Positions 1-898 of a DNA stretch of 898 nucleotides are shown piece after piece (position 1 is the stretch's first letter; each line of letters opens with the position of its first letter). The stretch lies in the NCBI RefSeq assembly GCF_003334315.1, contig NZ_QOWR01000127.1. One strand, 5' to 3'. The translations under genes were made by a program, and so were the position numbers. Below the pieces are notes generated by a model. The model saw only the letters and a list, made by a program, of their open reading frames with translations, made no database searches and was not told the DNA's origin. The DNA is from Escherichia coli. Its GTDB lineage: Bacteria; Pseudomonadota; Gammaproteobacteria; Enterobacterales; Enterobacteriaceae.

Positions 1-149
1 GGTTGAGAAGCGGTGTAAGTGAACTGCAGTTGCCATGTTTTACGGCAGTGAGAGCAGAGATAGCGCTGATGTCCGGCGGTGCTTTTGCCGTTACGCACCA
101 CCCCGTCAGTAGCTGAACAGGAGGGACAGCTGATAGAAACAGAAGCCAC
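1..149 (-). CDS. insA: IS1 InsA (transposition inhibitor / N-terminal part of the InsAB' transposase), 5' part only, runs off the window edge
   Basis: Minus-strand translation from the GTG whose complement is at 147..149: [50 protein letters not shown], continuing past position 1. It includes the CxxC...CxxC zinc-finger-like motif typical of InsA. Confidence 0.88.
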
Positions 150-181
150 TGGAGCACCTCAAAAACACCATCATACACTAA

Positions 182-204
182 ATCAGTAAGTTGGCATCAT
201 CACC
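182..204 (-). repeat. IS1 terminal inverted repeat (IRL-like), 23 bp, outermost base at 204
   Basis: Minus-strand sequence GGTGATGATGCCAACTTACTGAT against the canonical IRL GGTGATGCTGCCAACTTACTGAT as I remember it; the single difference is at window position 197. Confidence 0.8.
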
Positions 205-268
205 GTAGATGAGTTGTGTAAGAAAGTGACAAGTTGGATGTATTCGCATCCTGGAGAGAGAATTAGAT

Positions 269-487
269 ATGAACGTTTTAAGACACGTTAATGCGATTAA
301 CATGGGAGTGTGCATTCTAATTTGGGTTATTGGATGTGCAAATGCTAAAGTTCTTAAACGATGTATATTACCCGCTCCTGATGGTGGCGTAGAAAAACTA
401 TCAAAACCCAACTTACATGGAGTAATTAAAAAAGTTGATTTGAACACAAATGAAGCGGAAATTAAAATAAAAGAGGGGGGGCAGTGA
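269..487 (+). CDS. Putative small lipoprotein, 72 aa as written; possibly the N-terminal part of a longer frameshifted gene
   Basis: ORF from the track. Shine-Dalgarno-like GGAGAGAG at 253..260, about 8 nt before the ATG at 269. The N-terminus MNVLRHVNAINMGVCILIWVIGC has a basic n-region, a hydrophobic core and a lipobox-like V-I-G-C with Cys23; Ala at +2 suggests outer-membrane sorting by the Lol rule. The mature part is Lys-rich, as expected for AT-rich acquired DNA. No family recognised. Confidence 0.55.
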   Translation: MNVLRHVNAINMGVCILIWVIGCANAKVLKRCILPAPDGGVEKLSKPNLHGVIKKVDLNTNEAEIKIKEGGQ

Positions 488-660
488 GTTTTATTTTTAA
501 TGAGGAAACATTGTATTTTACTGTTTTTGGTGGGGATTTTATTATGGATGATTTAAAAAAAGTAAAAAATACGGAAGCATGGGTATGGTATAAAAATTGC
601 GATAGTAAAAATAAAAATGTGGCAGTTGAACTTCTTCAAATCTACGAATTGCATCAATGA
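484..660 (+). CDS. Small ORF of 58 codons from GTG 484 (or 38 aa from ATG 544); probably the C-terminal part of the upstream lipoprotein gene, separated by a frameshift in a G7 tract
   Basis: The frame is open from 466 to the TGA at 658..660, about 65 codons without a stop in ~30% GC DNA, which is unlikely by chance. Translation: VSFIFNEETLYFTVFGGDFIMDDLKKVKNTEAWVWYKNCDSKNKNVAVELLQIYELHQ. GTG 484 lies only ~3 nt after the G-run (poor spacing for initiation); ATG 544 has GGTGGGG at 529..535 with ~8 nt spacing. It is not in the supplied ORF track, presumably because it is short. Confidence 0.4.
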   Translation: MSFIFNEETLYFTVFGGDFIMDDLKKVKNTEAWVWYKNCDSKNKNVAVELLQIYELHQ

Positions 661-700
661 AAAATATAGTTAAATAGAGGAGGTTATTAATAGCAGGAAA

Positions 701-724
701 AGCATCACGTGATGCTGATTTTTT
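701..724 (+). terminator. Candidate rho-independent terminator: perfect 16-bp palindrome followed by a T6 run
   Basis: AGCATCACGTGATGCT (701..716) is a perfect palindrome (6-8 bp stem), followed by GA and TTTTTT (719..724). It sits 41 nt after the stop at 658..660. On the minus strand it is preceded by A6 and followed by only T3, so it is weaker in that direction but could act bidirectionally. Confidence 0.4.
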
Positions 725-806
725 GCACTAAATAATTCGCGCTAATGTTCAATAGTTAATATATCCCTCATCAGGGAAAGATCACCGGTGTGCCGTAGGC
801 ACAAAG

Positions 807-829
807 ATGCAAAACGGGACGTTTTGCAT
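807..829. repeat. Inverted repeat ATGCAAAACG-GGA-CGTTTTGCAT (10-bp arms, 3-bp spacer); possible operator or RNA hairpin
   Basis: Perfect arm complementarity seen directly. A 6-bp-stem inverted repeat TGTGCC-GTA-GGCACA lies at 789..803 and an 8-bp palindrome CACCGGTG at 783..790. No T-run follows, so it does not look like a classical terminator. Confidence 0.3.
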
Positions 830-898
830 GTAATAAGCATAAGCTTGTGAAGAGATGGTGGCAGGCCCACCGGGATCTGCTGTCGGAAGTCGGTCCCA

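What the first reader, a model, noticed from the sequence alone, without database searches (positions are those of the whole stretch)
701..724. Perfect 16-bp palindrome with central CACGTG, flanked by an A-run and a T-run
AGCATCACGTGATGCT is perfectly self-complementary and sits between a (G)GAAA stretch and GATTTTTT. The simplest reading is an intrinsic terminator closing the lipoprotein transcript. A perfect palindrome of this length could also be a dimeric protein binding site, and its placement is compatible with a bidirectional terminator between convergent genes if a minus-strand gene ends nearby.
Basis: seen in the sequence. Interest (0 to 1): 0.3.

Follow-up and report, generated by a model that had tools for sequence, protein, structure and literature searches.

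The report
Terminator-like hairpin in IS-end relic
The perfect palindrome is real, but it is the inner edge of a decayed insertion-sequence end (ISAs1/H-rpt family) sitting just after an E. coli Rhs toxin-immunity gene pair, where it probably acts as a modest transcription terminator; this is an ordinary feature.

Summary
AGCATCACGTGATGCT (701-716) is a perfect 16-bp palindrome, followed by GA and T6 (719-724).

The window is E. coli chromosome, from the aspV-yafV Rhs/T6SS island. It is a patchwork:
- an IS1 end (1-204);
- the last 87 nt of an Rhs toxin gene (205-291);
- a lipoprotein-like immunity-type gene split at a G-run (269-660);
- a 78-nt relic of an ISAs1/H-rpt left end (694-771);
- a second 16-nt IS-end start (772-787);
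- the 5' stump of a group II intron (788-898).

The palindrome occupies positions 8-23 of the IS-end relic, and its left arm overlaps the terminal inverted repeat. Intact H-rpt copies pair at only 5 of these 8 positions. No other E. coli H-rpt left end sampled, and only one weak case among 35 other ISAs1-family left ends, has a hairpin plus T-run. The feature is therefore specific to this locus.

It has the form of a weak-to-moderate Rho-independent terminator, 40 nt after the stop codon and on the gene's strand. The downstream gene is co-directional, so the bidirectional reading fails.

- Origin as an IS-end relic: high confidence.
- Terminator function: about even odds against a functionless relic.
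- Interest: low.

The parts
1..204 (-). Terminal 204 bp of an IS1 element. Its insertion or recombination removed the body of the Rhs core gene in this strain.
   Evidence: an IS1A-family transposase CDS runs into window 1-149 on the minus strand; window 1-204 matches IS1 copies elsewhere (L002, L003) separately from 205-898; thousands of IS1 matches in E. coli genomes.
205..291 (+). Last 87 nt (stop TAA 289-291) of an Rhs core protein gene. Its C-terminal tip has a YkuD/L,D-transpeptidase-like domain.
   Evidence: in strain PM4 (L003) window 205-898 follows directly on an intact RHS element core protein CDS (L003 1855-6087). Pfam RHS (E 1.4e-6) and YkuD (E 2.3e-4) in the last 249 aa.
269..660 (+). 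Rhs-linked downstream ORF (immunity-type, signal peptide with lipobox VIGC). In this strain it is split into 269-487 and 484-660 by a 7-G run at 475-481.
   Evidence: two ORFs; the 8-G allele in L003 gives one 130-aa protein. Pfam DUF4367 (E 4.6e-4) at residues 50-99, spanning the split. G-run lengths of 7, 8 and 9 in different genomes.
694..771 (+). Relic of the left end of an ISAs1-family (H-rpt/ISEc1) insertion sequence. Only the first 78 nt are present and there is no transposase gene.
   Evidence: 81% identity to the left end of the intact ISAs1 copy 245 bp downstream (L001 8946-9024); element termini defined from more than 6 different insertion contexts (left CAGGGAAAGATCACG..., right ...CGTAATCTTGCCCTG); 13-16 differences in 79 aligned columns against five intact left ends.
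694..709 (+). Terminal inverted-repeat-like sequence of the relic (CAGGAAAAGCATCACG, against the consensus CAGGGMAAGATYACG).
   Evidence: comparison of left and right ends; alignment.
701..716 (+). The perfect 16-bp palindrome. It forms an RNA hairpin with a 6-bp stem (3 G-C pairs) and an ACGU loop.
719..724 (+). T6 run (U-tract), 2 nt after the stem. A run of 5 or 6 T's is present in all E. coli H-rpt left ends examined.
772..787 (+). Second start of an ISAs1 left end (CAGGGAAAGATCACCG). It serves as the 5' exon of the intron stump that follows.
   Evidence: the same junction occurs in L010 (RhsE locus) and L012.
788..898 (+). 5' stump of an RmInt1-like group II intron. It starts GTGTGCC, continues about 47 nt past the window, and the rest of the intron is deleted.
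   Evidence: Rfam RF01999 group-II-D1D4-2 at 81.8 bits (gathering 36) on L001 8857-8977; the same hit in L003, L010, L113, L114 and L121; about 77% identity to a complete S. meliloti intron with the same GTGTGC start, the RF01999 motif about 84 nt in, a 427-aa ORF and D5/D6 (RF00029).

Best explanation
Identity (shown): the palindrome is part of a 78-nt relic of the left end of an ISAs1-family insertion sequence, the 'H-rpt' of E. coli Rhs elements. The relic starts 33 nt after the stop codon of an Rhs-linked immunity-type gene. The left arm of the palindrome (AGCATCACG) is the inner half of the element's terminal inverted repeat. The right arm replaces the TAACGC found in intact copies with TGATGC, which turns a 5-of-8 quasi-palindrome into a perfect one.

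Function (inferred): when the rhs-CT/immunity genes are transcribed, the RNA forms a 6-bp hairpin with a 4-nt loop, followed by GAUUUUUU. It would then act as a modest Rho-independent terminator. That would end the toxin-immunity transcript and keep read-through out of the ISAs1 transposase gene further downstream.

The hairpin is not a built-in feature of ISAs1 elements. It is specific to this one locus.
For: Origin:
- define the element termini from many insertion contexts and show 81-84% identity of 694-771 to intact left ends.
- L112 and L004 carry the same palindromic end fused to a full ISAs1 copy.

Terminator form:
- The scan hit has 6 pairs, 3 of them G-C, a loop of 4 and a T-rich tail.
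- The fold is -14.4 kcal/mol with z = -4.2.
- The site is on the same strand as the upstream ORFs and 40 nt after their stop codon.
- It is the only terminator-like site between those ORFs and the transposase gene.

Locus specificity:
- Of 36 ISAs1-family left ends scanned, the script flagged three. These were the window copy, a weak site in L164, and L117, which one search then showed is not an ISAs1 end. That leaves 1 of the other 35.
- No other sampled region upstream of an E. coli ISAs1 transposase gene has such a site.
- All copies of the palindromic variant share the same upstream flank.

Perfecting changes:
- All three differences inside the 16-mer raise complementarity.
- Simulated neutral drift from an intact-type ancestor reaches a perfect palindrome of at least 16 bp in about 0.1% of runs.
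Against: - The core hairpin is weak, -6.5 to -7.6 kcal/mol with only 3 G-C pairs.
- Two non-U bases separate the stem from the U-tract.
- Much of the -14.4 kcal/mol comes from A-U and G-U pairing between the upstream A-run and the U-tract itself. That pairing would compete with the U-tract's role in termination.
- Other Rhs loci have no terminator between the immunity gene and H-rpt, so one is clearly not required.
- All sampled copies of this locus are nearly identical (97-100%), so conservation carries no information.
- No transcript data could be consulted.
Confidence: 0.5

Rival explanations
1. The palindrome is a functionless relic. It is a decayed IS end whose quasi-palindrome became perfect by chance, or by templated (quasi-palindrome strand-switch) mutation. 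It neither terminates transcription to any useful degree nor binds anything.
For: - The region is a pile of mobile-element debris: IS1, two IS-end fragments and an intron stump.
- The hairpin is weak.
- Other Rhs/H-rpt junctions do without a hairpin.
- The intact-type sequence is already 5/8 self-complementary, so few changes are needed. Neutral simulation gives about 1e-3, which is not negligible given the thousands of IS relics in genomes.
- Two of the three perfecting changes lie in one arm, and a single strand-switch event could make both. This is inference from the known quasi-palindrome mutation mechanism.
Against: All three changes within the 16-mer go towards complementarity. The hairpin also sits directly before a conserved T6, which is exactly the geometry of a terminator. 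Any hairpin plus U6 of this kind is expected to cause at least some termination.
Confidence: 0.35
2. The palindrome is a DNA site for a dimeric protein. Candidates are the ISAs1 transposase, since the left arm is the inner half of its terminal repeat and the palindrome presents it in both orientations, or a host regulator that recognises ATCACGTGAT.
For: The symmetry is perfect over 16 bp. It overlaps the terminal inverted repeat CAGGGMAAGATYACG.
Against: - Intact, presumably functional ISAs1 copies lack the symmetry.
- The relic has no partner right end and no transposase gene of its own.
- I know of no E. coli regulator with this operator (own knowledge), and none was tested.
- The palindrome occurs at a single locus type.
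Confidence: 0.08
3. The palindrome is a bidirectional terminator serving convergent transcription units.
For: An A-run lies upstream and a T-run downstream of a symmetric stem. The minus strand also folds, at -9.5 kcal/mol.
Against: - No minus-strand gene ends nearby. The downstream genes are the + strand ISAs1 transposase and then yafV, about 1.5 kb away.
- The only minus-strand ORF in the window (742-870) lies inside the intron stump.
- The minus-strand tail is only UUUUCC, and z is -2.2.
Confidence: 0.03

Closest known systems
Rho-independent (intrinsic) transcription terminators of E. coli
   Same: A hairpin with G-C pairs, a short loop and a run of six U's, lying a few tens of nt after a stop codon on the coding strand. 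An upstream A-run can pair with the U-tract.
   Different: The stem is short (6 bp, 3 G-C, about -7 kcal/mol) and two non-U bases precede the U-tract. The site is built from the terminal repeat of an insertion sequence rather than from sequence belonging to the gene. No transcript evidence is available.
H-rpt / ISEc1 (ISAs1 family) insertion sequences of Rhs elements, including the partial H-rpt fragments long noted in Rhs loci (Hill laboratory work, recalled from memory; those papers are not in the library)
   Same: The terminal CAGG...AAG..ATCACG, the T-run and the GYACTAAATAATTCGC block match. Identity is 81-84% over 78 nt, and the position is immediately downstream of an Rhs immunity-type ORF.
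   Different: Only 78 nt remain. The GATC (Dam) site of intact ends is destroyed by an inserted C. TAACGC is replaced by TGATGC, which gives a perfect palindrome seen in no other copy sampled.
Quasi-palindrome template-switch mutation (Ripley model; own knowledge)
   Same: An imperfect inverted repeat has been converted into a perfect one by clustered changes.
   Different: The changes lie in both arms (+C on the left; A>G and C>T on the right). One event cannot explain all three, and the mechanism is not demonstrable from sequence alone.
IS self-protection against read-through transcription, such as the fold-back RBS sequestration of IS10 and IS50 (own knowledge)
   Same: A structure at the outer end of an IS would limit activation of the transposase gene by outside transcription.
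   Different: Here the structure would be a terminator, not RBS sequestration. It is absent from intact ISAs1 copies, so it is not a design feature of the family.

Membership tests
Rho-independent terminator | Stem of at least 5 bp with G-C pairs and a loop of 3-8 nt | tested here: met
   6 pairs, 3 of them G-C, loop ACGU.
Rho-independent terminator | U-rich tract directly 3' of the stem | tested here: met
   GAUUUUUU follows the stem. The six U's start 2 nt after it. This spacer is a weakness.
Rho-independent terminator | Hairpin stability in the range of working terminators | tested here: inconclusive
   The core is -6.5 to -7.6 kcal/mol, at the weak end by my own knowledge. The -14.4 kcal/mol fold uses the U-tract itself.
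Rho-independent terminator | Lies downstream of, and on the same strand as, the end of a transcription unit | tested here: met
   The site is 40 nt after the stop at 658-660 of the + strand ORFs that follow the Rhs core gene.
Rho-independent terminator | RNA 3' ends map to the U-tract and depend on the stem | not testable with these tools
   No transcript data are available here.
ISAs1-family (H-rpt/ISEc1) left end | Terminal sequence matches the family's inverted repeat | tested here: met
   CAGGAAAAGCATCACG against CAGGGMAAGATYACG, which was derived from the left and right ends of copies in different contexts.
ISAs1-family (H-rpt/ISEc1) left end | Continuous homology to the sub-terminal region of intact copies | tested here: met
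   13-16 differences in 79 columns against five intact left ends; blastn 81%.
ISAs1-family (H-rpt/ISEc1) left end | Followed by a DDE transposase gene and a matching right end (a complete, mobile element) | tested here: not met
   In the window the homology stops at 771 and other debris follows. It is therefore a relic, not an element. In L112 and L004 the same end is joined to a full copy, apparently by recombination between the two direct repeats.
Bidirectional terminator | Convergent genes end on either side | tested here: not met
   The downstream gene is co-directional, and the nearest minus-strand gene is about 1.5 kb away.
Bidirectional terminator | U-tract after the hairpin on both strands | tested here: not met
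   The minus-strand tail is UUUUCC, with a -9.5 kcal/mol fold and z = -2.2.
Group II intron (neighbouring segment 788-898, not the palindrome) | 5' GUGYG, domain-1 structure, RT ORF and D5/D6 | tested here: inconclusive
   The GTGTG start and RF01999 at 81.8 bits are present. There is no RT ORF or D5/D6 in E. coli loci, unlike the complete S. meliloti relative. The segment is a 5' stump only.

The most novel reading that the evidence does not exclude
The terminal repeat of an insertion sequence was exapted. After an H-rpt landed behind the rhs toxin-immunity pair, three changes that perfect the stem were selected. They turned the IS end's quasi-palindrome plus its native T-run into a working terminator, which closes the toxin-immunity operon and silences the downstream transposase.
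Probability: 0.2. Interest if true: 0.3.

Novelty: new member of a known kind. Interest (0 to 1): 0.15.

Why it matters
It matters little beyond annotation. The result shows that an apparently purposeful perfect palindrome is the edge of an IS relic, and that the region downstream of this Rhs immunity gene is layered mobile-element debris. If the hairpin does terminate, it would be a small, tidy example of an IS end being recruited as a gene-end signal. It would also define the 3' boundary of an Rhs (YkuD-like toxin)/immunity transcript present in roughly 900 of 5426 complete E. coli genomes.

Tried and rejected
1. An Aeromonas locus (L117) seemed to show an independent 14-bp palindrome plus T-run at the same place in an ISAs1-like left end. 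One search showed that this stretch belongs to the end of an IS66-like ISKpn15, and that ISAs12 starts only at L117 ~443. I withdrew it as support. The ISKpn31 'left end' with a T-run is uncertain for the same reason.

2. The plasmid record CP044307.1 (L111, 87.8%) looked like a diverged homologue suitable for a conservation test. Its alignment is riddled with single-base indels and probably reflects assembly error, so I did not use it.

3. The genome-contig scan with TTTTGNNCTAAATAATNCGC was too loose. Most of the 98 loci are chance AT-rich matches. The roughly 30 real ISAs1 left ends carry only the non-palindromic types, apart from copies of this same locus.

4. Conservation or covariation of the stem could not be tested, because all genuine copies of the locus have an identical palindrome.

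5. The older Rhs/H-rpt papers (PubMed ids 8387990 and 7868617) are not held, and two text searches gave nothing on H-rpt ends.

6. A family-wide 'terminator at the IS left end' hypothesis was rejected. Among the other 35 left ends sampled, only one weak site was found.

7. The segment 776-945 was compared with the ISAs1 transposase C-terminus and shows no relation.

Full report
**Observation.** The sequence AGCATCACGTGATGCT lies at 701-716 and is perfectly self-complementary. GGAAA precedes it (696-700), and GA followed by TTTTTT (719-724) comes after it.
- It is the longest perfect palindrome in the window. A perfect palindrome of at least 16 bp turns up in 87 of 5000 dinucleotide-preserving shuffles.
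- As RNA, 690-730 on the + strand folds to -14.4 kcal/mol (z = -4.2).
- That figure includes pairing of the upstream A-run with the U-tract. The 6-bp stem and 4-nt loop alone are worth about -6.5 to -7.6 kcal/mol.
- The consensus scan lists it as a terminator-like site.
- The minus strand folds less well (-9.5 kcal/mol, z = -2.2) and ends in UUUUCC.

**Where the window comes from.** The window is 100% identical to the chromosome of E. coli PSS-13, in the island between tRNA-Asp (aspV) and yafV that carries T6SS and Rhs remnants. Comparison with strains arranged differently resolves the window as follows.
- 1-204 is the end of an IS1.
- 205-291 is the last 87 nt of an Rhs core gene that is intact in strain PM4. 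Its tip has RHS and YkuD/L,D-transpeptidase-like Pfam matches.
- 269-660 is the Rhs-linked downstream ORF. It is a single 130-aa lipoprotein-like protein in PM4, with a weak DUF4367 match spanning the middle. In this strain it is split into two ORFs because a G-run has 7 rather than 8 G's.

**What the palindrome is.** BLAST of the window against its own locus showed that 693-771 is repeated at 81% identity about 245 bp downstream, directly upstream of an intact ISAs1-family transposase gene.
- I collected copies of this element (the H-rpt/ISEc1 of Rhs elements) from unrelated contexts: an O-antigen cluster, the ydcC locus and several Rhs loci.
- These fix its ends. The left end is CAGGGAAAGATCACGTAACGCTGCTTTTTTGTACTAAATAATTCGC... 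and the right end is ...CGTAATCTTGCCCTG. Together they give a terminal inverted repeat of about 15 bp, CAGGGMAAGATYACG.
- The window copy reads CAGGAAAAGCATCACGTGATGCTGATTTTTTGCAC.
- The palindrome therefore occupies element positions 8-23. Its left arm is the inner half of the terminal repeat, and the T-run is a native, conserved part of the IS end.
- The homology stops at 771, so this is a 78-nt relic.
- Next comes a second IS-end start (772-787), and then the 5' stump of a group II intron (788-898 and about 47 nt beyond).
- The intron stump is identified by an Rfam RF01999 match at 81.8 bits and by about 77% identity to a complete Sinorhizobium intron with the same GTGTGC start.
- In some strains (L112, L004) the palindromic end is joined directly to a full ISAs1 copy. 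The sequence pattern fits a deletion by recombination between the two direct repeats, within ACTAAATAATTCGC.

**Is the hairpin a property of the IS family?** No.
- Intact H-rpt left ends read AG-ATCACGTAACGCT at this position, which pairs at only 5 of 8 positions. A second subtype has unrelated sequence there, and these fold weakly.
- I sampled ISAs1-family elements from viral contigs, located their inverted repeats by script, and scanned the first 110 nt of 36 left ends, including the H-rpt subtypes.
- The script flagged three left ends: the window copy, L164 (weak) and L117. One search showed that L117 is not an ISAs1 end, so 1 of the other 35 remains.
- Among 11 regions upstream of E. coli ISAs1 transposase genes, only this locus has a terminator-like site.
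- Every copy of the palindromic variant found, including those from the species-wide scan, has the same upstream flank, so it represents one ancestral insertion.
- All related subtypes share TAACGC where the window has TGATGC. The three differences inside the 16-mer (+C, A>G, C>T) therefore look derived, and all three increase complementarity.
- A crude neutral-drift simulation from an intact-type ancestor, at the observed divergence, gives a perfect palindrome of at least 16 bp in about 0.1% of runs. This is suggestive, but it is a post-hoc number.

**How it most likely works.**
- Shown: the origin as an IS-end relic, the hairpin-plus-U6 geometry, and the position 40 nt after the stop codon on the same strand. 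It is also the only such site before the downstream transposase gene.
- Inferred: that it terminates the rhs-immunity transcript and insulates the transposase gene.
- Against a strong role: the stem is weak, a GA spacer separates it from the U-tract, the A-run competes for the U-tract, and other Rhs/H-rpt junctions have no terminator.
- I put terminator function at about even odds. The main rival is a functionless relic perfected by chance or by templated quasi-palindrome mutation.
- A protein-binding role is possible, because the left arm is transposase-end sequence, but nothing supports it.
- The bidirectional reading is contradicted by gene order.

**Comparison and novelty.** In form the site is a member of the intrinsic-terminator class, with in-vivo activity untested. 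In origin it is a member of the ISAs1/H-rpt left-end class, as a relic, because the complete-element criteria are not met. Partial H-rpt fragments in Rhs elements are long known (recalled from memory; those papers are not held). This particular palindromic variant does not appear in anything I could search. It is an ordinary feature with a slightly unusual pedigree: a new member of known kinds, of low interest.

**Dead ends.**
- An apparent parallel in Aeromonas was withdrawn after one search showed that it lies in an IS66-like element.
- A diverged 'plasmid' homologue is an indel-ridden assembly.
- The genome-wide pattern scan was mostly noise.
- Covariation could not be tested because all copies are identical.

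Noticed in passing
window 788-898 (continues to L001 8945/8977): 5' stump of an RmInt1-like group II intron. It starts GTGTGCC right after a 16-nt ISAs1 end start (772-787). Rfam RF01999 group-II-D1D4-2 scores 81.8 bits on L001 8857-8977. The same stump sits upstream of H-rpt in RhsE-type loci (L010, L011) and in L012, L113, L114 and L121. A complete relative in S. meliloti (L185) has the same start, the motif about 84 nt in, a 427-aa ORF and D5/D6. No RT ORF or D5/D6 is present in the E. coli loci. About 2,850 of 5,426 E. coli genomes carry the segment.
   Followed up: partly
window 475-481: A homopolymeric G-run lies inside the Rhs-linked immunity-type gene. It has 7 G's in the window, L001, L112 and L113 (gene split into 72-aa and 58-aa ORFs overlapping by GTGA). 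It has 8 G's in L002, L003 and L062 (one 130-aa ORF) and 9 G's in L004. L113 has the out-of-frame allele next to an apparently intact Rhs toxin gene. This could be slippage-based phase variation, decay, or sequencing error.
   Followed up: partly
window 205-291 and L003 5338-6087: The Rhs core C-terminal tip has a YkuD/L,D-transpeptidase-like domain (Pfam E 2.3e-4). This fits a periplasmic, peptidoglycan-directed toxin paired with a lipoprotein-like immunity protein (lipobox VIGC at residues 20-23). In the window the toxin gene is cut off by IS1 at 204/205.
   Followed up: partly
window 677-683: A strong Shine-Dalgarno-like GAGGAGG lies 17 nt after the stop codon and 11 nt before the IS-end relic, with no ORF behind it. 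It may be the orphaned ribosome-binding site of a gene displaced by the H-rpt insertion.
   Followed up: no
window 701-706 versus L001 8953-8958 and other H-rpt left ends: Intact H-rpt left ends carry GATC (a Dam methylation site) inside the terminal repeat (AAAGATCACG). The right end has GATT instead, and the window variant destroys the site by an inserted C (AAAGCATCACG). Dam control of ISAs1 ends is not something I could check.
   Followed up: no
window 790-802, 807-829, 857-871: There are three tight hairpins in the intron stump: GTGCC-GTA-GGCAC, ATGCAAAACG-GGA-CGTTTTGCAT (10-bp perfect stem), and GGTGG-CAGGC-CCACC. The last is the first helix of the RF01999 model. The 10-bp stem is a stronger structure than the palindrome under study.
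   Followed up: partly
L001 10228-10268: The full ISAs1 copy at this locus lacks the usual right end. After the transposase stop it reads TAATACCCCGACTCTCCCCGTCC... instead of TCTTGCCCTG, so this copy is probably immobile.
   Followed up: no
L112 1924-2110, L004 2468-2654: Some strains have a shorter arrangement in which the palindromic IS end is fused to the full ISAs1 copy. The crossover lies inside the shared ACTAAATAATTCGC, and about 250 bp (the rest of the relic plus the intron stump) is lost.
   Followed up: partly
L010 2480-2510: In the RhsE-type locus, three ISAs1 end starts are stacked head to tail (TTCAGGGAAAGATCACAGGGAAAGATCATCG) before the intron stump. This suggests repeated insertion into, or recombination at, the same terminal sequence.
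   Followed up: no
L117 397-415: The end of an IS66-like ISKpn15 element in Aeromonas carries a perfect 14-bp palindrome, GAGACGATCGTCTC, followed by ATTTTT, about 30 nt from its terminus. I first mistook it for an ISAs1 end.
   Followed up: partly
L111 (CP044307.1 21365-27936): This E. coli 'plasmid' record holds the same Rhs-tail/immunity/relic region, with dozens of single-base indels. It is probably uncorrected long-read error. The PLSDB 'plasmid' records NZ_OL790696.1 (4.8 Mb) and NZ_AP026896.1 (4.9 Mb) are evidently chromosomes.
   Followed up: no
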